64,000 nt of DNA. Source: Candidatus Saccharimonadales bacterium (GTDB lineage Bacteria; Patescibacteriota; Saccharimonadia; Saccharimonadales; EFPC-124). Positions 34,164 to 48,002 of this stretch are shown one piece after another. The notes below the pieces were generated by a model that was not told the DNA's origin, ran no database searches, and saw nothing but the letters and a program-made list of their open reading frames with translations. Every line of letters begins with the position of its first letter. Position 1 is the stretch's first letter. Both the position numbers and the translations under genes were made by a program. Location of the stretch: the NCBI GenBank assembly GCA_035280845.1, contig DATEFB010000012.1, positions 9,093-73,092 on the forward strand, written 5' to 3'.

Positions 34164-34589
34164 TCAGTTCCGCGGCGCGAAGCCCCGGAAGATGTCGGCG
34201 ATCAGCCAGGAGTTGTTGCTGCCGTGGTGGAGCACGAAGCCCCGACCGATGCCGAACAGCACCACCCCGAGAATGGTCCAGCCGACGCTCCACACCCAGG
34301 CGTAGCCCGAGCCGATGGCCCAGGACAGCGCCCCGATGGGGATCGCGGCAGCCAGTGCCAGGCGCGGGAAGTACCCGCCGAGAGCGGCGCCCACCAGGTA
34401 GCCGAAGCTGACGATGGCGAGGCCGAACAGCGCCACACAGGCGCCGACGCCCATACCCCAGGCCGCACTTCCGCTCGCAACGCCCACGATGGGGCCAGCG
34501 AACAGCGCGACCGGCAGGGCGATGACCCAGCCAAACGTGCGTACGCCCGAGCCGTGAAGGTCACGGCTGCGGCGGTATCCGTAGGACAT
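34164..34589 (-). CDS. hypothetical small membrane protein (4 TM), ~68% GC
   Basis: 141 aa, Gly/Ala-rich hydrophobic helices. Confidence 0.5.
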   Translation of the reverse strand: MSYGYRRSRDLHGSGVRTFGWVIALPVALFAGPIVGVASGSAAWGMGVGACVALFGLAIVSFGYLVGAALGGYFPRLALAAAIPIGALSWAIGSGYAWVWSVGWTILGVVLFGIGRGFVLHHGSNNSWLIADIFRGFAPRN

Positions 34590-34598
34590 GTCTGCCTC

Positions 34599-35330
34599 CT
34601 AAAGAGCGGTGGTTGCGCCGGCGCGGTGCTCCGCCTCGGCGAAGATTTCGGCGAGCGGGATGCCCAGCTCCAGGGCGATCATGATGACCAGCCTGGAGGC
34701 GGTGCCGATACCCCGGTCGGGGTCCCGGACCTCGACCGGCTTGTCGGCGTCCTCGGACGGCGTGAGCTGCGTGGCCAGTTCGGCCAGCAGCCGCGCGACG
34801 TGCGGCGACTGCGGCTCCTGCGCGGCGGCGTACACCGTCAGCGCGGAGTGCGCCTCCTGCAGGATCCGGGTAGCCCGGTCCTTCAGCGGCCGGTCGTGTG
34901 CCTTCGCCTCGCGCGCCTTAGCGGCACGCTCTTTGCGAAGGTTCCACTCAGCGACACCGACGACACTCACGAACTCGCAGTTCTCCTCCTTGGCACCGAA
35001 CGCCGAGAAGTGGTAGAGCCGCATGTTGAGGGTCGGCTGCGGCAGCTCGCCGTCCACCACTTCGGAGGACGGGCACACTGCCACGAGGTACCCACCCCAG
35101 TGGAACTCGGCGGCCATCTGCGCGTGAGCGGCGACGACGGTCAGGTCGGGACGCAACGCCTCCACCTCTTCGCGGAGGAGCTGCACGAATGCCTCTCCTG
35201 CCCCGTTGTTGGCGGCGTCGTTGGTCATCCCATGCCAGTCCGCCATGACGGCGACCGACTTGGGCTCACCACCCGTGGCGACCGCAGCAAAACGAGCAGC
35301 GGCGGCACGGTACTTACTGGCGTCGAACAT
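34599..35330 (-). CDS. hypothetical protein with C-terminal HTH-like segment, high GC
   Basis: 243 aa; C-terminus RGIGTASRLVIMIALELGIPLAEIF resembles a helix-turn-helix. Confidence 0.45.
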   Translation of the reverse strand: MFDASKYRAAAARFAAVATGGEPKSVAVMADWHGMTNDAANNGAGEAFVQLLREEVEALRPDLTVVAAHAQMAAEFHWGGYLVAVCPSSEVVDGELPQPTLNMRLYHFSAFGAKEENCEFVSVVGVAEWNLRKERAAKAREAKAHDRPLKDRATRILQEAHSALTVYAAAQEPQSPHVARLLAELATQLTPSEDADKPVEVRDPDRGIGTASRLVIMIALELGIPLAEIFAEAEHRAGATTAL

Positions 35331-35393: not shown

Positions 35394-36716
35394 CTAGACT
35401 ATATCGTCATCTTGGTGACGATAGTCCTTAATGGTGCTGACAGCACGGCTGAACGATAGCTTGTGTTCTTTTTCCTGAGCGACATCCTTAAGAGTGTATG
35501 TTTCTTCATCGAGCTCTTTCTGTCCAACAAACAACAGGAATGGGACGCCTTTTTTAATCGCCGTCTTAATCTGTTTGTCGATTTTGCGCCCAGTAATATC
35601 CAGTTCAGTATTCACCCCTTGGTTGCGAAGGCGGTCGGCAAGCTTTTGCGCGCCTTTTAGCGCATCGCCGAGCACTACAATGTACACTTCGGTGTTGGTG
35701 CGCAAGCCCGGAATGAGCTTGTGCGTCTCCAAAAAATCTGCAAATGTAACGTCGCCAATGGCAAATCCGGCAGTCGGCACCGGCTCTACACCGAACAGGC
35801 CAACCAAACCATCATAGCGGCCGCCGCCAAATAGTGAACGGGCGTTCATGGGGTTAGTGTCAAACACCTCGAACACGATGTCAGTGTAATAATCGAGGCC
35901 CCGCATAAGGCCAATGTCAAAGGTGACGCTTTTTACGCCATGTTCGCGGAGCAACGTGAACAGCATCTGCACTTCGCGGATCGCGGTCGATTCCAGTATT
36001 TGCTTTGGCAGGTCACCCATGCTTTTAGCAGCAAACAGCGTGCCAATCTTCTTAAGACCTTCCTGTACTTTAGGGCGGTCAAAGATCTCGGAAGCCTGGT
36101 CTATAAATTCGGCAGGCGAAACCTTATCTTTACGGTCAAACAGCTTCATCATGAGTTGCGACTGCACAACATCGAGCTCTAAATATTCGGCCATCATAAA
36201 GTTCACCAGGCTGCGGCTGTTGATTTTAATGGTGTACATTTTATCGGTGGCGCCAAACTGCTTCATGATCTGGTCGGCCATGGTAATAAGCTCGACTTCG
36301 GCATCTATGGTTTGCACGCCAAAAATATCGACGTTCAGTTGCCAGAACTCGCGCAACCGGCCGCGTTGTGGACGCTGGTAGCGCATAAAGTTCGCCACCG
36401 AATACCAGCGCACGGGGTACGGCAGTTCCTGCCGACGACCAGCGACCAACCGGCTGACGCTTGGCGTCATCTCTGGACGGATCATTACCTGGCGGTTACC
36501 GCGGTCAACAAATAAATAACTTTCGTCGTTCACCAGCTCCTGGCCACTTTTTGCGGCGTATAACTCGAGAGGTTCGAGCATTGGCGTCATATATTCTTCG
36601 TACCCGTAACGCTCCGCCATTTTGCGCCATACGCTGAAAATGTGGTTTTGCACGCGCATATCTTCCGGATAGAAGTCGCGTGAGCCTTTATACGGTTGTG
36701 TTGTGAGCATTGCCAT
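35394..36716 (-). CDS. hisS: histidine--tRNA ligase
   Basis: 440 aa; class II motifs (RDFYPEDM, FRYERPQ-like MRYQRPQRGRLREFWQ, GGGRYDGL) and anticodon-binding domain. Confidence 0.93.
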   Translation of the reverse strand: MAMLTTQPYKGSRDFYPEDMRVQNHIFSVWRKMAERYGYEEYMTPMLEPLELYAAKSGQELVNDESYLFVDRGNRQVMIRPEMTPSVSRLVAGRRQELPYPVRWYSVANFMRYQRPQRGRLREFWQLNVDIFGVQTIDAEVELITMADQIMKQFGATDKMYTIKINSRSLVNFMMAEYLELDVVQSQLMMKLFDRKDKVSPAEFIDQASEIFDRPKVQEGLKKIGTLFAAKSMGDLPKQILESTAIREVQMLFTLLREHGVKSVTFDIGLMRGLDYYTDIVFEVFDTNPMNARSLFGGGRYDGLVGLFGVEPVPTAGFAIGDVTFADFLETHKLIPGLRTNTEVYIVVLGDALKGAQKLADRLRNQGVNTELDITGRKIDKQIKTAIKKGVPFLLFVGQKELDEETYTLKDVAQEKEHKLSFSRAVSTIKDYRHQDDDIV

Positions 36717-36892: not shown

Positions 36893-37690
36893 TCAGGTCA
36901 GCCGGTCCATGCTGACGACGTGCAGTGCCTGCTCGTGGGTTGGGATCATCTGGCTGCCGATGCGGGAATCCAATCGTTCGTGAAGCTGCTGGCGCGTCGT
37001 TTCGTCTATCCCACATTCCGCCAGCGTCAGGCCAGCCTGGTACAAACCAGTCAGTAACTTACCGTCACGCTCAACGTCCAGATAGCCGCCACCAAACGCG
37101 TTCTTGCGCAGAGACTTAAATTGAATACCTCTTACATAATCGGCGATTTCGTCTGGGCCAACCAGTAGCCTATCCATGACCACCAGCGGTGGTGCGGCGC
37201 GTTCGTCGTTCAGGTCCAGTCGCGAACTGCTGTGCCCTGGGTCGAGCAACATGTGGCCAAGGTGAATGCGTGCCTGCCGTGGGTCATCGGGAAGTTGCGC
37301 AAACGGCACATCCATGGCAAATCTTACACCGAATTCACGGTCGACAGTCATGCCGAGTGGACCATCGATCATGCCGCCGGTGGCACCATGCACAGTAACT
37401 GCCAAGGCTGTCACGCCAGTTTGGGCACGAGTCACAACATCATCCATGTATGCCATTCGTGCTTGCCTCTCTTGCCTGCCCGCGCCCACGCCATGGGTTA
37501 CATACATAGCGAGCCTCAGCGCGTCTCCAGGAGTCAGGTCGCCGCGATCAAACAAATCGGCTACGTGTTTTTTTCGTTCATCCAATGCCAGGTACGGGTC
37601 TTCCTGGCTTGGCCTCAGGGCATCGATGTCGGAAATATGACGATCCAAAATACGTTCACTGTAACCCAGCTCTTCTTTCACTGCAGTCAT
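36893..37690 (-). CDS. hypothetical protein (265 aa)
   Basis: ORF only; ~58% GC; no recognisable motif. Confidence 0.45.
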   Translation of the reverse strand: MTAVKEELGYSERILDRHISDIDALRPSQEDPYLALDERKKHVADLFDRGDLTPGDALRLAMYVTHGVGAGRQERQARMAYMDDVVTRAQTGVTALAVTVHGATGGMIDGPLGMTVDREFGVRFAMDVPFAQLPDDPRQARIHLGHMLLDPGHSSSRLDLNDERAAPPLVVMDRLLVGPDEIADYVRGIQFKSLRKNAFGGGYLDVERDGKLLTGLYQAGLTLAECGIDETTRQQLHERLDSRIGSQMIPTHEQALHVVSMDRLT

Positions 37691-37776: not shown

Positions 37777-38481
37777 TTACCGCTGTTTGCCTGCTGCGGC
37801 TTCGTCGAGCAACCAGACAACCGCACCGCCAGCTTCGTCAACCATAGTAGCGGCCCTGGCCACAGGAAGCGTCGAGCCTTTCGCCAATGCATCAGCCACG
37901 GTAGTCGCCTTGCCCGTCCCCGCGACTAGGATTAGGCAGACGCCGGCTTTCTTGAGCGCCTCAAAAGTGAGCGTTATGCGCTGCGCCGGCGGTTTAGGCG
38001 AATCGTGCACCGCGCACACCAGCCGGACATCAGGCACTCCGTGTCCCGGGAAAAGCGAGAGGGTGTGGCCATCCTCGCCCATGCCAAGCCATACCACATC
38101 AAAACGGGCAATTTGGAATACGGCTTGTTCGTAGGCATCGGCTGCAGCGTCCGGCCCAAGCTCGACAGGCGGTACCAGGCGGTTTTCGTCGGCAATCCCA
38201 AGTGCGTCAAGGAAACCCTGTATTTGCCCCCAGTTAGAATCTGGGTGCGTAAGCGGCACGCAGCGTTCATCACCCATAAGGACAGTAACCTTGCTCCAGT
38301 CGAGCGCGTTTGCGTATGTTTTAGCGAGTATGTCGTAGGCTGCCATTGGCGAAGTTCCGCCAGCCAGCACCCATGTGGCTTCGCCGCGGGACCGCACAGC
38401 GTCGCCCAAGGCTTCGGCAGTGCGCCGGGCAGCCTCTTCGGCCACCAGGTGAGGTGAGGCAACAATCGTTGTATGTATCAT
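37777..38481 (-). CDS. pgl: 6-phosphogluconolactonase
   Basis: 234 aa; VLAGGTSP, DERCVP, GMGEDGHTLSLFPGH motifs of the Pgl/NagB family; no zwf nearby. Confidence 0.82.
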   Translation of the reverse strand: MIHTTIVASPHLVAEEAARRTAEALGDAVRSRGEATWVLAGGTSPMAAYDILAKTYANALDWSKVTVLMGDERCVPLTHPDSNWGQIQGFLDALGIADENRLVPPVELGPDAAADAYEQAVFQIARFDVVWLGMGEDGHTLSLFPGHGVPDVRLVCAVHDSPKPPAQRITLTFEALKKAGVCLILVAGTGKATTVADALAKGSTLPVARAATMVDEAGGAVVWLLDEAAAGKQR

Positions 38482-38534
38482 GTCTTAACAGTATCAATAG
38501 GGATGAAACATAAAAAGCGCCAAAAGGCGGATCT

Positions 38535-38564
38535 GTGGACCCCGGGTGTCACGCCGGGGTCCAC
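38535..38564 (-). terminator. 11 bp inverted repeat GTGGACCCCGG...CCGGGGTCCAC after the TIR-like gene
   Basis: perfect 11 bp arms, 8 nt loop, followed on minus strand by T-rich tract. Confidence 0.5.
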
Positions 38565-38573
38565 AATTGGCCG

Positions 38574-39011
38574 TTACGACTGCGGAAAAGGCGGTCTGGA
38601 GACCCGGTGGGGCTCGGGCTGGCCAAGGCCTGCGCGCACAATACGCTCCAGCCAAGCCAGGTCGGCAGCCTCGTCCTGCCCGTAGATCTCGCCCATCATG
38701 ATGCCGGCGAGCAGAGCTGCTGACGTACAGGGCTCCACCTTGACGGGCAGAAGCTTTTCGCGGCCACCGAGGAATCGGATTTCCGCGTAGCCCAGCCCGA
38801 GGTCACGCATTGAAGCTTCGCTCAGAAGCACCAGCGAGAACTCGGTGTCGAGCATGCCACGGCCGAATGCCGCATAGATGCTGCCGCCCGGCACGTAGTC
38901 TGACACGACAACCTCGAAGCCCTTGTCCGCGAGCCGGGCTGCGATCCACGTGGCCATAGCTACATCATTGCCGCGCGCCAGGTGGATGATGCCAACCTTA
39001 CGCTTTGTCAT
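38574..39011 (-). CDS. TIR-like domain protein (standalone, 145 aa), ~65% GC
   Basis: flavodoxin-like pattern matching TIR secondary structure: VGIIHLARGND (betaA), AMATWIAARLADKGFEVVV (alphaA), SDYVPGGSIYAAFGRGMLDTEFSLVLLSEASM, LLPVKVEP. Confidence 0.45.
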   Translation of the reverse strand: MTKRKVGIIHLARGNDVAMATWIAARLADKGFEVVVSDYVPGGSIYAAFGRGMLDTEFSLVLLSEASMRDLGLGYAEIRFLGGREKLLPVKVEPCTSAALLAGIMMGEIYGQDEAADLAWLERIVRAGLGQPEPHRVSRPPFPQS

Positions 39012-39150
39012 GCTAATCCTCTCAGTAAACGGCGTGGCAAAATTATATAATCTTTCAAGATTTTATACAAAAACATTCTTCGTTATTTGCGCCTATTGTC
39101 TTCCCATGTTTTAATTTGTTAGTTCGCCGACCACAACGCAGGAGGTACCA

Positions 39151-39861
39151 TTGCAACGACAATGCGCAACCTTGAACGTACTCGCCGACGCCTACCTGGG
39201 CTATGGCAGCTACGACTCAGCACCGGAGCTTCTGGTGCCGGGCGCACGCACACCGCATCTGGTACGGCTCATCAACGGCCTAGGGGCCGACATTGTGGGC
39301 CTGCAGGAGGCCGAGCCGACTCTGGTGGCCGCGCTCAGCATGGCCGGCGATTGGCAGGTCTTCTGGTCACAGAAGCAAAACAACAAACCGGACGGCTGTC
39401 TGACTCTGGTGCGGCGAGGCATTACCGCCATGGGCTTCACCACCCACGGCTATGCCGATGGCACCGGACACATCCTGCAAATGGTGACTGTCGAGGGTGT
39501 CGTCTTTGCCAACACGCACATCAAGTGGGCCCCGGCAGACAGCCCGGACCACGTTGGCGTAGGACAGACAAGGGCAATGCTCGACCACCTGGGGTCTACA
39601 CGCCCAGCGGTCATCTTCGCAGATTGCAACGACCGCCCAGGTGGACCGGTTCGGGCGCTAGTGCAGGCCGCAGGCTTCACCAACGTCAGTGGCGATGACC
39701 CGACAGCACTCATCGGGGAGGAGCGGGCGCCGATCGACTTGCTCGCCTACCGTGGGGTTCGCGCCACGCGAATCGACCTGCAGTTCAAGCCCGACGACAT
39801 CCCCTCGACCGAATGCCCATCGGACCACATTCCGGTGATGGCGACCATCGAGACCGAGTAA
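39151..39861 (+). CDS. endonuclease/exonuclease/phosphatase (EEP) family protein, TTG start, high GC
   Basis: 236 aa; LNVL...DIVGLQE...SDHIPV motifs of EEP fold; SD GGAGG 5 nt before TTG 39151. Confidence 0.7.
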   Translation: MQRQCATLNVLADAYLGYGSYDSAPELLVPGARTPHLVRLINGLGADIVGLQEAEPTLVAALSMAGDWQVFWSQKQNNKPDGCLTLVRRGITAMGFTTHGYADGTGHILQMVTVEGVVFANTHIKWAPADSPDHVGVGQTRAMLDHLGSTRPAVIFADCNDRPGGPVRALVQAAGFTNVSGDDPTALIGEERAPIDLLAYRGVRATRIDLQFKPDDIPSTECPSDHIPVMATIETE

Positions 39862-39964: not shown

Positions 39965-40426
39965 TTATACCAGTCGCGCCAGCCGATCCATCATAGCCAC
40001 AACCGAGTCTTCATTCATTCCAGACTCCATCATAGCCTGACGTTCCTCGACAGATTGAAAGATCATCTGATCGGTCAATCTCGTCTTGCCACCAGAGAGT
40101 TCCTCGAAGGTCACCGTGTGGAGCATCACGCTCGGCACCGCCTCGAAAGCCCACGTGCCCACAAGCAACTCGCCTTTTACAACTTTGTGGTAGACGCCAC
40201 GAAACAAATACTCATCGCCGCCAACCGTATTAATAAAGCGCCATTGACCCCCTTCGCGCACGTCCATTACCTCAACGTTTAGCGGGCTACTTGGATCGAT
40301 CCACCACTTGGGGATTAATGTGGGATCTGTATATGCTGCAAACACTCTGCTCGCTGGCGCATCAAAAATATAGGTAGAGAGCATGACAAGAGAATCTGGC
40401 TCAGCAGTAAATGTATGGTGTGACAT
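39965..40426 (-). CDS. SRPBCC superfamily protein (AHSA1/Aha1-like)
   Basis: 153 aa; FDAPASRVFAAYTDPTLIPKWW...GGQWRF pattern typical of activator-of-Hsp90-ATPase-like SRPBCC proteins. Confidence 0.65.
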   Translation of the reverse strand: MSHHTFTAEPDSLVMLSTYIFDAPASRVFAAYTDPTLIPKWWIDPSSPLNVEVMDVREGGQWRFINTVGGDEYLFRGVYHKVVKGELLVGTWAFEAVPSVMLHTVTFEELSGGKTRLTDQMIFQSVEERQAMMESGMNEDSVVAMMDRLARLV

Positions 40427-40440
40427 TAAAATATATTCCT

Positions 40441-41061
40441 TTAGTTAGGCTTGTATGTAAGAAGCAGGAGGCCGTTGTTGAGTGCCCGAGTTTCGACTAA
40501 TCCCAGCGTCTTCTGATCTAGCCCTTCATTAAAAAGCCGCTTGCCTTCACCGAGAATAATCGGGTGAAGCTGCAGCCGATATTCATCGACAAGATCATTC
40601 TGAATAAGCGTTTGCACCAATTGAGCGCTGCCATTCACTAGAATAGGGCCGCCGGCTGATTGTTTGAGCTTTTTGAGCCCTGCGACAACGTCGTGCTTAA
40701 TCTGGGTTGTATTATTCCAGATCAAATCTTCATCTGTAAGCGTAGACGAAACGACATACTTCTTCATACTGTTTATTTGATCAGAGAACGCTCCCATATT
40801 AGCCGTGGGCCAAAATTCGGCAAACGCTTGGTACGTAACTCGCCCTAAAAGCAGCGCATCCGCAGCCAACAGCTCATCAACTTTGTACTGACCAGCTTCT
40901 TCATTCATGAAGGGCAGGTTCCAGCCACCGCGGGGGATTTCCTTGCTACCACCTGGGTCTTGCATAACACCGTCAAGGGTAATAAATTCGGATACAATAA
41001 TCTTTCGCATAGAGACCACTGTAGCGTACAACGGACGCCCCGTCTTGAATGAAAACGACAT
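40441..41061 (-). CDS. dihydrofolate reductase family protein (RibD C-terminal domain type)
   Basis: 206 aa; MRKIIVSEFITLDGVMQDPGG...GSAQLVQTL...DEYRLQLHPIILGEGKRLF. Confidence 0.75.
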   Translation of the reverse strand: MSFSFKTGRPLYATVVSMRKIIVSEFITLDGVMQDPGGSKEIPRGGWNLPFMNEEAGQYKVDELLAADALLLGRVTYQAFAEFWPTANMGAFSDQINSMKKYVVSSTLTDEDLIWNNTTQIKHDVVAGLKKLKQSAGGPILVNGSAQLVQTLIQNDLVDEYRLQLHPIILGEGKRLFNEGLDQKTLGLVETRALNNGLLLLTYKPN

Positions 41062-41807
41062 TACTGTTTGGAGTTTTTGGCCTGAATTTGGGCCGGCGTA
41101 AGCCCAAGAAAGTGTTTCAACGATCGGTTAAGGTGCGACTGGTCAGCATAGCCTGCCTCTATCGCCACAGTATCAATTGACATGCCCTTCGCCAAAAGGT
41201 TGGCGGCATAATGCGCCTGCTCTATGCGCTTTAGGGTACGCTTGGGTAGTCCAACGGTCTGCAGAAAATGACGCTGCACCGTGCGCTGAGTGCCCTCTAG
41301 GGATTCCCCTTTTAGCGTATTCTCTACGACCGAATCATGGACCAGTAGCCCCTCTCTCACTAACCGAGCCACAAACGACTCGGCATTATTAAAGGTCGGA
41401 AAGTGCCAGAGTTCTCCGTTGAGCCGAAACGTTGCGGGTGTTACCGATGGGAGCTCCCGGTCCCTCAGGTCATACAATTCGTGAGGAGGGAAATAAGGCA
41501 TATAGACGCCGGGCTTGAACACAATACCAACAAACTCAGCGTTGGCAGGACAGGTCATTTCTGTCGCTTTTGTTTCTGGCCCACGGAGAGTAAGTGTTGT
41601 TTTGCCATCAATCCTCGACACGACCAGTTCCCAATAACTGTTTGCTACCGAGGTAAAGATACTCTCGTGCAAGCTGCGGGCCCGCCATACTTTTTGGATA
41701 TATGGCGAATCCGACGGCCTCTCTTCAAGAGTAAACTGCTGAGCCACTATTGACGCCCCTTCGACATAGCGCGATTGTATCAAAACCGGCGCGCCAATGC
41801 GACCCAA
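41061..41807 (-). CDS. AraC family transcriptional regulator
   Basis: 248 aa; C-terminal double HTH (QRHFLQTVGLPKRTLKRIEQAHYAANLL...AIEAGYADQSHLNRSLKHFLGLTPAQ). Confidence 0.8.
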   Translation of the reverse strand: MGRIGAPVLIQSRYVEGASIVAQQFTLEERPSDSPYIQKVWRARSLHESIFTSVANSYWELVVSRIDGKTTLTLRGPETKATEMTCPANAEFVGIVFKPGVYMPYFPPHELYDLRDRELPSVTPATFRLNGELWHFPTFNNAESFVARLVREGLLVHDSVVENTLKGESLEGTQRTVQRHFLQTVGLPKRTLKRIEQAHYAANLLAKGMSIDTVAIEAGYADQSHLNRSLKHFLGLTPAQIQAKNSKQ

Positions 41808-41834
41808 GGCTAAAAAGGCAGAAGCAACAACAAA

Positions 41835-41868
41835 GTAAAAGACCTCAGGCGTAACTGAGGTCTTTTAC
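41835..41868 (-). terminator. terminator hairpin (AAAAGACCTCAG gcgtaa CTGAGGTCTTTT) immediately 3' of tRNA-Leu
   Basis: 12 bp perfect stem followed by T-rich tract on minus strand. Confidence 0.6.
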
Positions 41869-41869
41869 T

Positions 41870-41953
41870 TGGTGCGCGAGAGAGGACTTGAACCTCCACG
41901 CCCGAAGGCACATGCTCCTAAGGCATGCGTGTCTACCATTCCACCACTCGCGC
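41870..41953 (-). tRNA. tRNA-Leu (anticodon UAG), 84 nt with long variable arm and encoded CCA
   Basis: rev-comp GCGCGAGTGGTGGAATGGTAGACACGCATGCCTTAGGAGCATGTGCCTTCGGGCGTGGAGGTTCAAGTCCTCTCTCGCGCACCA; 7 bp acceptor stem, anticodon stem CATGC/GCATG with loop CTTAGGA (TAG, G37), T-loop TTCAAGT; closely parallels E. coli tRNA-Leu architecture. Confidence 0.9.
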
Positions 41954-42859: not shown

Positions 42860-45415
42860 CTACATAGTGAACCAGGCCGAGCCATTGTTATATACCTGTA
42901 CCGAGCCCCATGCGGTATTGATAGTCCGCGAGCCCGCGCCGTCGATAGTCTGACCGCTTGTTCCCTGAATGGTAATGTTACTGGCGCCGGCGTTCCCTGT
43001 TTGGTCCTTAATGATGTACGTTTGGTTCGTATTGCCAGCCGCAGCCAAAGGTAACGTTACGACACGTGGCGCGGTCAGTGTTGTGTAAGCAATAAGGTAG
43101 TCACTGGCGACGGCAATGTAGTTAATGTCGGCGACACCCCGGCGGTTAATAGCCATACCTCCGCCGAGGCTTAGAGTAGCAGTAGGCGCAGCCGTACCAA
43201 TGCCAACATTGCCGCCGGTAAACCATGTGTTGCCACTCGGCGCCACTTTTGCCACGCTCGCGCTCGGTGCAGGCACTGTGCCCGCAGTAGAAGCACCACC
43301 GGTATCGGTAAAGCTGTTTGTGGTAGCGGTGTAGTACACGTTCTCGCCGCCCGGACTAGTGCCGCGATATATCCTGTACGATCCAGCACCGGCAACGGCC
43401 GTCCAGCTTAAGTTGACCGAACCACTGGGGCCAGTAACGACAGCGTTTACTTCTGAGCCGGCCACAGACGTGCCGCCAGCACCATCGAGCGAGATAACCT
43501 GGTAATAATATGTGCCGCTCGCTAGCGTTCCACCGCTCCCAACAGGAGTTGCCGAAAGCCCGCCAGGTGGCGACATACGAATGTTGATAGTGCCGCCATT
43601 AACCGTTAAAGCTTGGTCGGGGCTAGCCGTTAAAATGCCCACGCGGTTGCTTTGGTTGTCGACGTTAAAAATGGTGGTGCTTGCGGCGTTTTGCACTTGC
43701 AATACATTCGATGCGTTGTTGACTGGCTTTACAAGGACGTTCGAAGTCAGCATGGCGTTTGCAAACACGTAGTTACTGCCCTGGCTGTAGCGCAACGTAC
43801 CAATAATAGTTCCGGTAAACGGTGTAACAGTTGCCGAAAGGTTGGCCTCGATCTGGATTGGCGTCAGTACGTTACTGCCATATACAACGCCGACGGTAAT
43901 CGGGTTGTTAACGCCTGAGCCAAAAACGGTGTTGCCTGCGTGCATGCGAACTGTAACCTCTTGGGCATTTGCCAGTGCCAACGCTGTTCCACCGGTGTTG
44001 TTAGCCTGAATGTCCAAAACAATGTCTTTATTCACGCCACTGTTAATTTGTCCGATTGCCACAACCGGGTCACAGCTTGTGGTTACGCCAATAACTTCAA
44101 AAGCCTGCACGTTGGCGTACACGTTGCTACATGCGTTATCAATAACCAGACCGCCGAACGGCACGCCTACACCCGTACAGCTATCGACAAACAGGCTCGT
44201 GTAATGGATCTGGTTACTCTGGTTTAAATGCACGCCCGTCTTACAGCCAATGGCATACACAAAATTCACCACGCAGTCGCTCCCGGCATTGTGGTAAATG
44301 CCGCGGTAACCACCTTTTATAAACACGCCGCCAATTTCGAAGTGATACCCAAGGAGCGCCAGTCCATCTTGCCCTCGCAGCAGCCCGGTCGACTCAATTG
44401 CGGTACCCACATGCCACAGCCGCACATCGCCTAAGTAAATATGCGCCTGCTGGTTCGAGGTAATGCCAGCCTGGATGCCTGCGCCATGCAGACATTCAAC
44501 AAGAATCCGACGCACTACGGCATAGGGCTGCACCACCACGCACGGAGCAAAGCGGTCGGCCAATGCATTCACAATAATACCCAAGCCGTCAAAGATAACG
44601 CCAGACGGAATGGAAACCTGGGACGTGACAATATAAATCGCCTGTGTCGGGCCGGCTGGCAACGTAACAACACCATTACCCATGCCCATTGGCTGGTTTG
44701 GGTTGGTCATGTAGCCAGCAATAAATTGCAGCCCGGTTGCGGCGGCGTTGACGGCGTTCTGCAGTGCGGCCGTGTTGTCGCTGCCGTACACCATAACGCC
44801 GTTGCCGGAGTTGGTTGTAATGCCGGCTGTCGACGCAAGCGTTACCTGAGTGGCCGACTGCACAGATTGAATGGTTGTGATTGTACCCGCGCTCCCGCTG
44901 GTATATACAATGGCTATTTTGCCAACATCCGCCGAACTAAACGTACCGGCGCTTGTGGTAACAGTAGAACTTCCCGATGCCGCCACAACGCTGTTTACGC
45001 GTTTGCCGTCGCCAAGGGCGCCGTAATCGCGGGCGTTAATCTCGACATCACCCTTACTGACCAATGCCGATGTATCAACGGTAGGGTTGCCCCACTTCAC
45101 ACCCGCCGCCTGCGCACTGTCTGCCACAAGTGCCTGCCCGTCTGTGCCGACACCAAGGCGCTGTACGTTCGAGGCACCAGCCGCGACAAACAAATCGCCC
45201 TTGGCAGTTGCCGCAGTTTTATCGATTTTAGAGGCGAGCGCACCCTCGAGGCCATTCACCTTACTCTGGGCAATATTGGCCGCAGCAGAAATATGAGCAT
45301 CTGCAACAATTCCTGAGCGCAACGATCCATCTGACTTATGGACTTGTGCTAAGAAATCGTTGAGGACTTGTCCCCAAATACCATCATCGCCACCAGGACT
45401 TGGAAGCCGCGACAT
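42860..45415 (-). CDS. large beta-helix protein: pectate-lyase-superfamily (tailspike/depolymerase-like) domain + FN3-like + tail-fibre-like C-terminal domain
   Basis: 851 aa; NARDYGALGDGKRVNS (Pectate_lyase_3-type start), Gly/Thr/Ser/Asn-rich beta-helix body, SVNLSWTAVAGAGSYRIYRGTSPGG (FN3-like), C-terminal GGNVGIGTAAPTATLSLGGG motif seen in phage tail-fibre domains; no obvious signal peptide. Confidence 0.65.
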   Translation of the reverse strand: MSRLPSPGGDDGIWGQVLNDFLAQVHKSDGSLRSGIVADAHISAAANIAQSKVNGLEGALASKIDKTAATAKGDLFVAAGASNVQRLGVGTDGQALVADSAQAAGVKWGNPTVDTSALVSKGDVEINARDYGALGDGKRVNSVVAASGSSTVTTSAGTFSSADVGKIAIVYTSGSAGTITTIQSVQSATQVTLASTAGITTNSGNGVMVYGSDNTAALQNAVNAAATGLQFIAGYMTNPNQPMGMGNGVVTLPAGPTQAIYIVTSQVSIPSGVIFDGLGIIVNALADRFAPCVVVQPYAVVRRILVECLHGAGIQAGITSNQQAHIYLGDVRLWHVGTAIESTGLLRGQDGLALLGYHFEIGGVFIKGGYRGIYHNAGSDCVVNFVYAIGCKTGVHLNQSNQIHYTSLFVDSCTGVGVPFGGLVIDNACSNVYANVQAFEVIGVTTSCDPVVAIGQINSGVNKDIVLDIQANNTGGTALALANAQEVTVRMHAGNTVFGSGVNNPITVGVVYGSNVLTPIQIEANLSATVTPFTGTIIGTLRYSQGSNYVFANAMLTSNVLVKPVNNASNVLQVQNAASTTIFNVDNQSNRVGILTASPDQALTVNGGTINIRMSPPGGLSATPVGSGGTLASGTYYYQVISLDGAGGTSVAGSEVNAVVTGPSGSVNLSWTAVAGAGSYRIYRGTSPGGENVYYTATTNSFTDTGGASTAGTVPAPSASVAKVAPSGNTWFTGGNVGIGTAAPTATLSLGGGMAINRRGVADINYIAVASDYLIAYTTLTAPRVVTLPLAAAGNTNQTYIIKDQTGNAGASNITIQGTSGQTIDGAGSRTINTAWGSVQVYNNGSAWFTM

Positions 45416-47459: not shown

Positions 47460-48002
47460 TCATTTGGACTGTCTTTGACGGTAGAATGCCAGCGCCGCAT
47501 CTCCGTAATATCTATTGTCCACCACAACAACTCCATTAACGGTCGGCGCTGAGCCTCTACCTGGGTATGATAATACCATAAGCCCGTTTGGGTTTAAATG
47601 ACGAATTAACAACGAAACTGTGGATAACTGCAGATCCTGGTACGGTGGGTCTGCAAGGATAAGATCGAAGGTAGCGTCAGGGTTTTGTTCGCTCCACATG
47701 CGGCAGTTTGCTTTTACAAGCTGCACTCTGTCTTCGACCCCAAGTGACTCAATATTTTTCTGGATAACCTTCTGCGCAATTCGGTCGCGCTCAAGGGCAA
47801 GGCTGTTTTTTGCACCCCTGCTTACTGCTTCGAAGCTGACCGCTCCACTGCCCGCGAACGGGTCGAGCACGGTCTTGCCCTCGGCATCAATCATATTAAA
47901 TAGAGCGCCACGCATACGTTCGCCCATAGGATGGGTCGCGTCGGAGCCGGGCGAATCCAGAAACCTGCCCCCGAACTCACCCGCGATCACCCGGATGCGC
48001 AT
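47460..48002 (-). CDS. rsmD: 16S rRNA (guanine966-N2)-methyltransferase RsmD
   Basis: 180 aa; LDPFAGSGAVSFEAVSRGA SAM motif and LILADPPY motif. Confidence 0.85.
   Translation of the reverse strand: MRIRVIAGEFGGRFLDSPGSDATHPMGERMRGALFNMIDAEGKTVLDPFAGSGAVSFEAVSRGAKNSLALERDRIAQKVIQKNIESLGVEDRVQLVKANCRMWSEQNPDATFDLILADPPYQDLQLSTVSLLIRHLNPNGLMVLSYPGRGSAPTVNGVVVVDNRYYGDAALAFYRQRQSK

What the first reader, a model, noticed from the sequence alone, without database searches (positions are those of the whole stretch)
38535..39861. Standalone TIR-like protein divergently paired with an EEP-family nuclease/phosphatase
The 145 aa protein follows the TIR secondary-structure/sequence pattern (betaA VGIIHLA, alphaA AMATWIAARLADKGFEVVV, SDYVPGGS, SLVLLSEASM, LLPVKVEP). 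Bacterial TIR domains act as NAD+-consuming or signal-generating modules in anti-phage systems such as Thoeris and CBASS-like systems. The divergent neighbour is an EEP-fold enzyme (nuclease/phosphatase family). Both are compositional outliers sharing one AT-rich promoter region, suggesting a co-acquired two-gene unit. A TIR plus EEP pairing is not a described defence architecture to my knowledge.
Basis: partly seen in the sequence, partly recalled or inferred. Interest (0 to 1): 0.55.

Follow-up and report, generated by a model that had tools for sequence, protein, structure and literature searches.

The report
Lone TIR gene beside unrelated phosphoesterase
The small gene really does encode a stand-alone TIR (NAD-cleaving immune-type) domain and its neighbour really is an EEP phosphoesterase, but the two are next to each other only in this one Saccharimonadales genome, so they are not a new two-gene defence system.

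Summary
A 145-aa ORF (38574-39011, minus strand) and a 236-aa ORF (39151-39861, plus strand) diverge from a 139-bp, 38% GC spacer.

**The 145-aa protein is a TIR domain.**
- It scores above the Pfam TIR_2 cut-off.
- Its AlphaFold model matches BtTir, BtpA, PdTIR and AbTir best.
- Glu77 aligns with their conserved Glu.

**The 236-aa protein is an intact EEP enzyme** of the CCR4/Nocturnin/ANGEL2/PDE12 type.

**The "TIR+EEP unit" is not supported.**
- The EEP belongs to a family widespread in Saccharibacteria (169 clusters). None of the loci I inspected has a TIR neighbour.
- The TIR has only five loosely related short homologues, all metagenomic singletons. None has an EEP neighbour.
- Close relatives (HisRS 87-94% identical) keep the pgl-hisS-tig-clpP-rpoB backbone but carry different cargo upstream of pgl.

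**Best reading:** an accessory, fast-evolving, probably NAD(P)+-cleaving TIR-only protein sitting in a variable hot spot, next to a lineage-typical phosphoesterase by chance.

**Unexplained:** three of the six short TIRs sit just upstream of pgl.

**Verdict:** low interest; a new member of a known kind.

The parts
38574..39011 (-). Gene for a 145-aa stand-alone TIR-domain protein (Pfam TIR_2 type). The candidate catalytic Glu is E77, in 'GYAEIRF'.
   Evidence: ORF. Pfam TIR_2 at 36.7 bits, above the cut-off of 28. Profile against PDB sequences finds PdTIR 3h16 at E 2.9e-8, plus BtpA, BtTir and AbTir, with the Glu column aligned. AlphaFold2 pLDDT 81 and pTM 0.79. Foldseek top hits are TIR domains.
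39012..39150 (.). 139-bp AT-rich (38% GC) divergent spacer. It holds a perfect TATAAT on the minus strand about 26 nt before the TIR start, and TTGCGC-17-TTTAAT plus AGGAGG on the plus strand before the EEP start.
   Evidence: Sequence. The strict consensus scan found no promoter here, so the promoters are inferred by eye only.
39151..39861 (+). Gene for a 236-aa compact EEP-fold phosphoesterase of the CCR4/CNOT6L-Nocturnin-ANGEL2-PDE12 type. It belongs to a family widespread in Saccharibacteria.
   Evidence: Pfam PF03372 at 35.9 bits, above 24.5. 169 homologous clusters, the listed ones 49-66% identical; every source that names an organism names Saccharibacteria or Saccharimonadales. Residues N9, E53, N121, H123, D158, N160, D225 and H226 are invariant. 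Profile against PDB finds ANGEL2, CNOT6L, PDE12 and Nocturnin. AlphaFold2 pLDDT 93. Foldseek finds CNOT6L, Nocturnin, ANGEL2 and PDE12 at TMq 0.78-0.84.
38534..38565 (-). 12-bp perfect GC-rich hairpin 9 nt after the TIR stop, followed by a 4-bp mini-hairpin and a U-run. It is a likely terminator or RNA-stability element separating TIR from pgl.
   Evidence: Inverted repeat I1. RNA fold of -39.2 kcal/mol, z = -5.0 against shuffles. The simple terminator scan did not call it.
37777..38481 (-). 6-phosphogluconolactonase (pgl), first gene of the conserved backbone pgl-hisS-tig-clpP-rpoB. It lies immediately downstream of the TIR gene on the same strand.
   Evidence: TIGR01198 at 1.6e-49. Backbone synteny in L031, L032 and L044. 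A TIR-like gene lies upstream of pgl also in L006 and L031.
35394..36716 (-). Histidine-tRNA ligase, used here as the backbone anchor to recognise close relatives.
   Evidence: TIGR00442 at 1.2e-103. It is 94% identical in L031, 87% in L032 and 70% in L001.

Best explanation
The window comes from a Candidatus Saccharimonadales metagenome-assembled genome.

The 145-aa gene encodes a genuine TIR-only protein. It belongs to a very small, fast-evolving group of short TIR_2-type proteins. Members with informative flanks sit in Saccharimonadales-like, housekeeping-rich contigs.

It keeps the Glu (E77) that is catalytic in characterised TIR NADases. I therefore infer that it cleaves NAD+ or NADP+ once it self-associates. 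It would act either as a self-contained suicide or growth-arrest module, or as a signal maker for a partner encoded elsewhere.

The gene is accessory, GC-rich cargo in a variable slot just upstream of the conserved pgl-hisS-tig-clpP-rpoB block.

The divergent neighbour is a compact Mg-dependent phosphoesterase of the CCR4/Nocturnin/ANGEL2/PDE12 type. It most likely acts on the 2' or 3' end of an RNA or adenine nucleotide. Its family is common across Saccharibacteria and functions without any TIR.

The adjacency of the two genes is peculiar to this genome and does not define a system.

- Shown: the identity and fold of both proteins, the presence of catalytic residues, the lack of co-occurrence, and the variable-slot anatomy.
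- Inferred: NADase activity, the substrates, and any role in immunity.
For: **TIR identity**.

**Glu column**
- E77 aligns with the conserved 'EW' Glu of canonical TIR_2 relatives.
- That profile column aligns with the Glu of '..ELDG/ELNG' in PdTIR, BtpA and BtTir.

**Rarity of the TIR**
- An exhaustive HMMER search of 1.84 billion representatives gives 79 hits at E<=1e-3 (the query itself included).
- Besides the query itself, only one hit is better than 1e-10: P0122, at 43% identity.
- All five short relatives are single-member clusters.

**EEP family**
- It is widespread and named only from Saccharibacteria.
- Its neighbours differ in L001, L003 and L004/5. L033 and L034 were fetched.
- None of these loci has a TIR ORF (HMM scan).

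**TIR-side contexts**, none with an EEP
- L006: pgl.
- L007: SecA, HPF and a class II aminoacyl-tRNA synthetase.
- L008: stress-type accessory genes.
- L031: unknown genes, then pgl and hisS.
- L043: TrhO-like rhodanese protein (by my reading of the translation).

**Variable slot**
- L032 (HisRS 87%, the 851-aa protein 81%) and L044 have other genes upstream of pgl.
- L031 (HisRS 94%) has a 26%-identical TIR plus unrelated GC-rich ORFs there.

**No defence partners**: the neighbours match no specific defence-system model in PADLOC and nothing in PHROGs.
Against: - TIR and EEP have almost identical GC3 (0.747 and 0.751) and are bounded by ordinary-GC3 genes. A single joint acquisition is therefore possible.
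- They share one spacer.
- Sampling on the TIR side is thin: five loci of 1.3-7.2 kb. A link in trans cannot be excluded, since the EEP is common in the phylum.
- For NADase activity, the Glu is replaced in two of the six short family members: Ala in P0152 and Gln in P0132.
- The Trp of the usual 'W..xE' context is absent.
- No activity data exist.
Confidence: 0.65

Rival explanations
1. TIR and EEP are a functional two-gene module. The TIR makes an NAD-derived nucleotide. The CCR4/Nocturnin/PDE12-like EEP then either degrades or edits that signal, or acts as the nuclease or phosphatase effector. This would be a new defence architecture.
For: - Divergent arrangement on one AT-rich spacer.
- Equal, outlying GC3 for both genes.
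- The EEP's nearest solved relatives act on adenine-nucleotide 2'/3' groups: Nocturnin with bound NADPH, PDE12, and ANGEL2 as a 2',3'-cyclic phosphatase. Chemically, that fits TIR products.
Against: - There is no co-occurrence in any other locus from either side.
- The EEP family is abundant (169 clusters) while the TIR group is nearly orphan, so the EEP's function cannot depend on this TIR.
- Neither protein matches a PADLOC model meaningfully.
- Full-text searches found no paper that combines TIR, EEP and defence terms.
Confidence: 0.08
2. The TIR-like protein is functionally tied to pgl and the oxidative pentose-phosphate pathway. It could be, for example, an NADP(H)-binding or NADP(H)-cleaving regulator co-expressed with 6-phosphogluconolactonase.
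For: - Three of six short-family members lie just upstream of pgl on the same strand: the window, L006 (TIR 43% and pgl 65% identical), and L031 with one gene in between.
- pgl is far more diverged (61%) than the flanking HisRS (87-94%). That could mean the TIR-pgl segment is exchanged together.
Against: - Close relatives with the same backbone have pgl without a TIR: L032, L044, and L030 with 89%-identical pgl.
- 21 pgl loci from reference genomes have no TIR ORF.
- Three short-family members (L007, L008, L043) have no pgl nearby on these short contigs.
- A strong hairpin with a U-run separates TIR from pgl.
- pgl has backbone-like GC3 while the TIR does not. This fits cargo landing in a hot spot next to pgl.
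Confidence: 0.1
3. The protein is a catalytically dead or decaying TIR. It would be either a protein-interaction scaffold or a remnant of the N-terminal TIR of an NLR-like protein, with no enzymatic role.
For: - The Glu is not invariant in the short family: Ala in P0152 and Gln in P0132. Overall conservation is low, with mean column identity of 44% and only 7 invariant positions.
- The family consists of singletons only.
- Its nearest canonical relatives are the N-terminal TIR domains of NACHT/AAA16-WD40/TPR proteins. The window protein even keeps the 'PPFP' linker motif that follows the domain there.
Against: - The ORF is intact, with a good ribosome-binding site and a confident fold (pLDDT 81).
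- E77 is retained in four of six members, including the closest one.
- The C-terminal helix region is well conserved between the two closest members, which argues for selection.
Confidence: 0.17

Closest known systems
Bacterial TIR-domain NADases with solved structures (BtTir 7uxr, AbTir 7uwg/8g83, BtpA/TcpB 4lzp/4c7m, PdTIR 3h16)
   Same: - Same fold: TM 0.62-0.73.
- Same Pfam family, TIR_2.
- Glu in the same alignment column.
- Similar size of the TIR module.
   Different: - Only 13-18% identity in the structural alignments.
- No N-terminal coiled-coil or other extension.
- The 'W' of the W..xE context is missing.
- It comes from a reduced-genome episymbiont lineage.
- Activity is untested.
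N-terminal TIR_2 domains of actinobacterial NLR-like STAND proteins (TIR-NACHT/AAA16-WD40/TPR, e.g. Frankia, Pseudofrankia, Pseudonocardiaceae)
   Same: - These are the best sequence relatives outside the short family, at 33-41% identity and E 1e-7 to 1e-3.
- They share the C-terminal 'LLxxI...G.DE' helix region and the 'PPFP' linker motif.
   Different: - The window protein is the TIR module alone. It has no NTPase and no repeat sensor.
- It lacks the 'FISY..D' and 'WD..PG.N' signatures in their full form.
Thoeris ThsB (TIR sensor paired with a ThsA effector)
   Same: It is a small single-domain TIR protein that could in principle make a nucleotide signal.
   Different: - No ThsA-like gene (SIR2, Macro or SLOG) lies nearby.
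- There is no hit to ThsB models in PADLOC, and no Pfam family other than TIR_2 scored significantly.
CCR4/CNOT6L, Nocturnin, ANGEL2 and PDE12 subgroup of the EEP superfamily (for the neighbour gene)
   Same: - Best sequence-profile and fold matches.
- The 'NVLAD.Y' N-terminal motif and the full set of EEP catalytic residues are present.
   Different: - It is much smaller: 236 aa against catalytic domains of roughly 300-350 aa.
- It is bacterial and restricted to Saccharibacteria.
- Identity in the structural alignments is 14-20%.
- The substrate is unknown.

Membership tests
TIR domain (Pfam TIR_2, PF13676) | Sequence score at or above the curated family cut-off, over most of the domain | tested here: met
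   36.7 bits against a cut-off of 28. Residues 14-111 match profile positions 7-110 of 122.
TIR domain (Pfam TIR_2, PF13676) | Flavodoxin-like beta-alpha fold that superposes best on TIR domains rather than on other flavodoxin-like families | tested here: met
   AlphaFold2 pLDDT 81. The top 29 Foldseek PDB hits are TIR domains. Type II dehydroquinase and response regulators appear only lower down and more weakly.
Catalytic (NADase) TIR domains | Conserved Glu in the helix after strand C (the catalytic Glu of SARM1, AbTir and BtpA, from established knowledge) | tested here: met
   E77 lies in the conserved Glu column of alignment A1. That column aligns with the Glu of ELDG/ELNG in 3h16, 4lzp and 7uxr. 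It is not invariant in the short family, where 4 of 6 members keep it.
Catalytic (NADase) TIR domains | Measured NAD(P)+ cleavage or cyclisation | not testable with these tools
   This needs an enzyme assay.
Thoeris (ThsB + ThsA) | TIR gene adjacent to a ThsA effector (SIR2, Macro or transmembrane domain with SLOG) | tested here: not met
   PADLOC finds no ThsA or ThsB hit for the protein or for 14 neighbouring proteins across about 32-49 kb of the window. Pfam on the neighbours shows pgl, AHSA1, RibD_C and AraC.
TIR-STAND / bacterial NLR-like proteins | TIR fused to a NACHT/NB-ARC-type NTPase and repeat sensor | tested here: not met
   The protein is 145 aa with a single domain. Relatives with that architecture exist, but this gene is flanked by a terminator-like hairpin and a promoter spacer.
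Proposed 'TIR + EEP' two-gene system | Recurrent adjacency of homologues of both genes in independent genomes | tested here: not met
   An HMM scan of all 42 loci fetched by then, plus the window, finds both genes together only in the window. L043 and L044 were checked separately.
EEP superfamily (PF03372) | Score above the cut-off and the canonical catalytic residues present (N, E, N/H, D.N, SDH) | tested here: met
   35.9 bits against a cut-off of 24.5. N9, E53, N121, H123, D158, N160, S224, D225 and H226 are invariant in 18 orthologues.
CCR4/Nocturnin-type EEP subgroup | Closest to CCR4/CNOT6L, Nocturnin, ANGEL2 and PDE12 rather than to DNase I, sphingomyelinase or inositol phosphatase types | tested here: met
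   The sequence profile hits only this subgroup at E<=0.01. The Foldseek top 14 are all from this subgroup, at TMq 0.73-0.84. Substrate specificity was not tested.

The most novel reading that the evidence does not exclude
Soil Saccharimonadales may carry minimal TIR-only genes on GC-rich cargo in a hot spot upstream of pgl. These genes would descend from the TIR heads of NLR-like immune proteins of Actinobacteria, their usual hosts (from established knowledge).

They could serve as a one-protein NADase immunity module. Alternatively they could be an effector or decoy aimed at the host's TIR-based immunity.

In this genome the CCR4/Nocturnin-like EEP next door would process the TIR's nucleotide product.
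Probability: 0.06. Interest if true: 0.65.

Novelty: new member of a known kind. Interest (0 to 1): 0.25.

Why it matters
If the pairing had been real, it would have added a new effector class to TIR-based bacterial immunity. It is not conserved, so that claim falls. Three modest points remain:

- Episymbiotic, reduced-genome Saccharimonadales carry rare, rapidly diverging TIR-only genes with the catalytic Glu. They sit in a recombination hot spot next to housekeeping genes.
- The phylum has a widespread, uncharacterised mini-enzyme of the CCR4/Nocturnin type.
- The nearest canonical TIR relatives are actinobacterial. This is worth a look in the context of symbiont-host gene flow.

Tried and rejected
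- **Word-indexed homologue search with the TIR**: found only the protein itself. The exhaustive search was needed.
- **Single-sequence PDB searches** for both proteins: nothing found. Profiles were needed.
- **Reference-genome scan with the six-member TIR alignment**: With the two closest members, no confirmed locus was found.
- **Reference-genome scan with pgl**: 21 loci, none with a TIR ORF.
- **Metagenome scan with the EEP alignment**: only 10 loci, 2 of them orthologue-level.
- **TIR-pgl spacer alignment between the window and L006**: no conservation.
- **Consensus scan**: no promoter or terminator called in the spacers.
- **Rfam**: only the tRNA-Leu.
- **PHROGs**: no phage-family hit for either gene or for the unknown neighbours.
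- **NCBIfam**: no named family for TIR or EEP.
- **Literature searches** for TIR with EEP or defence, and for Saccharibacteria with TIR: nothing relevant. One search failed on a term-format error.
- **Nucleoside deoxyribosyltransferase-like or other flavodoxin-like identity**: rejected, because every top fold and sequence match is a TIR.
- **Two contigs with 87-89% identical pgl**: could not be read because no DNA was held. Only gene sizes are known for them.
Full report
**What is there.** The window matches a 74-kb contig of a Candidatus Saccharimonadales metagenome-assembled genome (source names).
- At 38574-39011 on the minus strand lies an ATG-initiated ORF of 145 aa.
- At 39151-39861 on the plus strand lies a TTG-initiated ORF of 236 aa, 6 nt after AGGAGG.
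- The two diverge from a 139-bp spacer of 38% GC.
- Downstream of the small ORF, on the same strand, come pgl (37777-38481; TIGR01198, 1.6e-49), an unknown 265-aa ORF, and hisS.
- On the other side of the EEP lie an AHSA1/SRPBCC gene, a RibD_C reductase-like gene, an AraC regulator, tRNA-Leu (41870-41953) and an unknown GC-rich ORF.

**The small protein is a TIR domain.**
- Pfam TIR_2 scores 36.7 bits, above the curated 28, over residues 14-111.
- A profile built from it and its relatives (A1) matches the bacterial TIR structures PdTIR (E 2.9e-8), BtpA/TcpB, BtTir and AbTir.
- An AlphaFold2 model has mean pLDDT 81 and pTM 0.79. Its strand-helix order fits the TIR topology: bA 5-10, aA 16-29, bB 33-38, aB 45-55, bC 58-63, aC 65-81, bD 87-91, aE 114-128.
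- Its best PDB matches are all TIR domains. BtTir, BtpA, PdTIR and AbTir give TM 0.62-0.73. Other flavodoxin-like folds come lower.
- Glu77 ('GYAEIRF') falls in the conserved Glu column of the canonical relatives.
- That column aligns with the Glu of the ELDG/ELNG motif in the solved bacterial TIRs. From established knowledge of SARM1, AbTir and BtpA, this is the catalytic residue.

**The neighbour is an intact EEP enzyme of the CCR4/Nocturnin kind.**
- Pfam Exo_endo_phos scores 35.9 bits, above 24.5, over the full length.
- In an alignment of 18 orthologues the canonical residues are invariant: N9, E53, N121, H123, D158, N160, S224, D225 and H226.
- The family profile hits only ANGEL2, CNOT6L/CNOT6, PDE12, yeast Ccr4 and Nocturnin among solved structures.
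- The AlphaFold2 model (pLDDT 93) matches the same set best, at TMq 0.78-0.84.
- It is therefore not DNase I-like, sphingomyelinase-like or inositol-phosphatase-like. It is a stripped-down version of enzymes that act on the 2'/3' groups of RNA ends or adenine nucleotides.

**Is it a two-gene unit? No evidence beyond this genome.**
- The EEP has 169 homologous clusters. The listed ones are 49-66% identical, and every source that names an organism names Saccharibacteria.
- In the orthologue contexts read (L001, L003, L004/5, L033, L034) the neighbours are all different. A profile scan finds no TIR ORF in them, nor in eight more distant EEP loci.
- The TIR is almost an orphan. An exhaustive HMMER search of 1.84 billion representative proteins returns 79 hits at E<=1e-3, and apart from the query itself only one beats 1e-10 (P0122, 43% identity).
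- Five short stand-alone relatives form a loose group with it (26-40% identity in the alignment). All are single-member clusters from single metagenomes.
- Their neighbours are as follows, and none is an EEP:
  - L006: pgl.
  - L007: SecA, hibernation factor and a class II aminoacyl-tRNA synthetase.
  - L008: glyoxalase, ArsR-type HTH, AHSA1, DUF1579, hydrolase, DUF4287.
  - L031: unknown ORFs, then pgl and hisS.
  - L043: a TrhO-like rhodanese protein, by my reading of the translation.
- PADLOC gives no meaningful match for either protein (one marginal 30-residue hit at E 0.016). None of 14 neighbouring proteins matches a specific defence-system model. The one neighbour with hits, the 180-aa product at 47460-48002, matches only generic methyltransferase-type models and is the orthologue of a housekeeping-type methyltransferase conserved in L032. 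PHROGs gives nothing.

**Anatomy of the region.**
- Close relatives can be recognised by HisRS: L031 at 94%, L032 at 87%.
- L032 also shares the 851-aa protein (81%), trigger factor (82%), ClpP (91%) and upstream genes.
- L032 and L044 show the backbone (851-aa protein in L032) - [slot] - pgl - hisS - x - tig - x - clpP - ... - rpoB.
- The slot holds different cargo in each genome:
  - L032: a 333-aa unknown gene on the opposite strand.
  - L044: a 209-aa unknown gene.
  - L031: a TIR-like gene (P0152) plus unrelated unknown ORFs.
  - The window: TIR, EEP, AHSA1, RibD_C, AraC, tRNA-Leu and a 252-aa unknown gene.
- The cargo is GC3-rich while the backbone is not. In the window, TIR is 0.75 and EEP 0.75 against pgl 0.61 and HisRS 0.60. 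In L031, P0152 is 0.82 and its unknown neighbours 0.76-0.91 against pgl 0.54 and HisRS 0.56.
- The compositional observation is therefore real, and the two window genes could have arrived together.
- What recurs in the slot, however, is a TIR-like gene (in two of the four genomes that share the backbone), not the EEP.
- EEP orthologues are also GC-richer than their surroundings in two of four other loci (L001 and L004). That weakens composition as an argument for a joint origin.

**An unexplained regularity.**
- Three of the six short TIRs sit just upstream of pgl on the same strand: the window; L006, with TIR 43% and pgl 65% identical; and L031, with one gene between.
- pgl is also oddly diverged (61%) between genomes whose HisRS is 87-94% identical.
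- This could mean a functional TIR-pgl link, possibly through NADP(H). It could also mean a cassette that is exchanged as a piece, or simply an insertion hot spot beside pgl.
- Against a functional link:
  - pgl occurs without a TIR in L030 (89% identical pgl), L032, L044 and 21 reference-genome loci.
  - Three short TIRs have no pgl nearby on their (short) contigs.
  - A very stable hairpin with a U-run follows the TIR stop codon (z = -5).
- I favour the hot-spot reading but cannot settle it.

**How it most likely works.**
- Shown: a complete, confidently folded TIR domain with the catalytic-position Glu, and no fused or adjacent sensor or effector.
- Inferred: like other TIR-only proteins, it would become active on self-association and cleave NAD+ or NADP+. 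That would either deplete the pool or make an ADPR-type signal for a partner elsewhere in the genome.
- Its closest canonical relatives are the N-terminal TIR heads of actinobacterial NACHT/AAA16-WD40/TPR proteins from Frankia, Pseudofrankia and Pseudonocardiaceae. It even keeps their post-domain 'PPFP' motif. It looks like such a head on its own.
- Caveats: the Glu is lost in two of six family members, so catalysis is not universally maintained in the group. I put about 0.45 on E77-dependent NADase activity in this protein, and about 0.85 on the statement that TIR and EEP are not a conserved functional pair.

**Novelty and verdict.**
- Both proteins are new, divergent members of known families.
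- The proposed TIR+EEP architecture is not supported.
- The case is of low general interest. Minor points of curiosity are TIR-only genes in a reduced-genome episymbiont lineage, their actinobacterial affinities, and the recurrent position next to pgl.

Noticed in passing
window 34164-34589 and 34599-35330 (minus strand): Two adjacent ORFs (141 and 243 aa) have GC 0.69 and GC3 0.86-0.88, far above the window median of 0.59. They have no hit in Pfam (the 243-aa ORF only), NCBIfam, PADLOC or PHROGs. They are wedged between trigger factor and hisS, where relatives L032 and L044 have a single gene of about 200 aa. This is the most foreign-looking insert in the window.
   Followed up: partly
window 37777-38481 compared with L031:4880-5572 and L032:8001-8849: pgl is only 61% identical between genomes whose adjacent HisRS is 87-94% identical. 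The pgl allele, possibly together with its upstream cargo, seems to be replaced or to evolve far faster than its neighbours.
   Followed up: partly
window 38574-39011; L006:462-902; L031:3606-4031: Short TIR-only genes recur immediately upstream of pgl on the same strand in three of the six loci where this small family is seen. The TIRs are only 26-43% identical to one another.
   Followed up: partly
window 38534-38565: A 12-bp perfect GC-rich hairpin lies 9 nt after the TIR stop. It is followed by a 4-bp hairpin and a U-run (RNA fold z = -5). It is probably a terminator that the simple scan missed.
   Followed up: yes
window 36893-37690 (minus strand): A 265-aa ORF lies between pgl and hisS. 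It has no family hit in any library and no counterpart in the close relatives, where pgl and hisS are adjacent (L031, L032, L044).
   Followed up: partly
window 39965-41953: An AHSA1/SRPBCC, RibD_C and AraC gene trio sits next to tRNA-Leu (41870-41953), and all are absent from this position in L032. An AHSA1 gene also lies near the short TIR in L008. These are typical soil-bacterium accessory 'stress' genes inside a reduced genome.
   Followed up: no
window 42860-45415 (minus strand): An 851-aa protein has no Pfam, PADLOC or PHROGs hit but is 81% identical in L032. It is therefore a conserved lineage-specific large protein of unknown function. It is rich in Gly, Ala, Thr and Ser, which suggests a surface or fibre-like protein.
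   Followed up: no
L003:4513-5493 and L003:6001-6714: In a 1.26-Mb contig, the EEP orthologue is divergently paired with a second, longer EEP-family gene (326 aa). The family has paralogues in some genomes.
   Followed up: no
L001:7251-9945: Downstream of the EEP orthologue in L001 lie a CdiA_C toxin-domain ORF, an IS-type DDE transposase and a PLD-like gene. This neighbourhood is also a variable, conflict-gene-rich region, and it lies about 5 kb from hisS.
   Followed up: no
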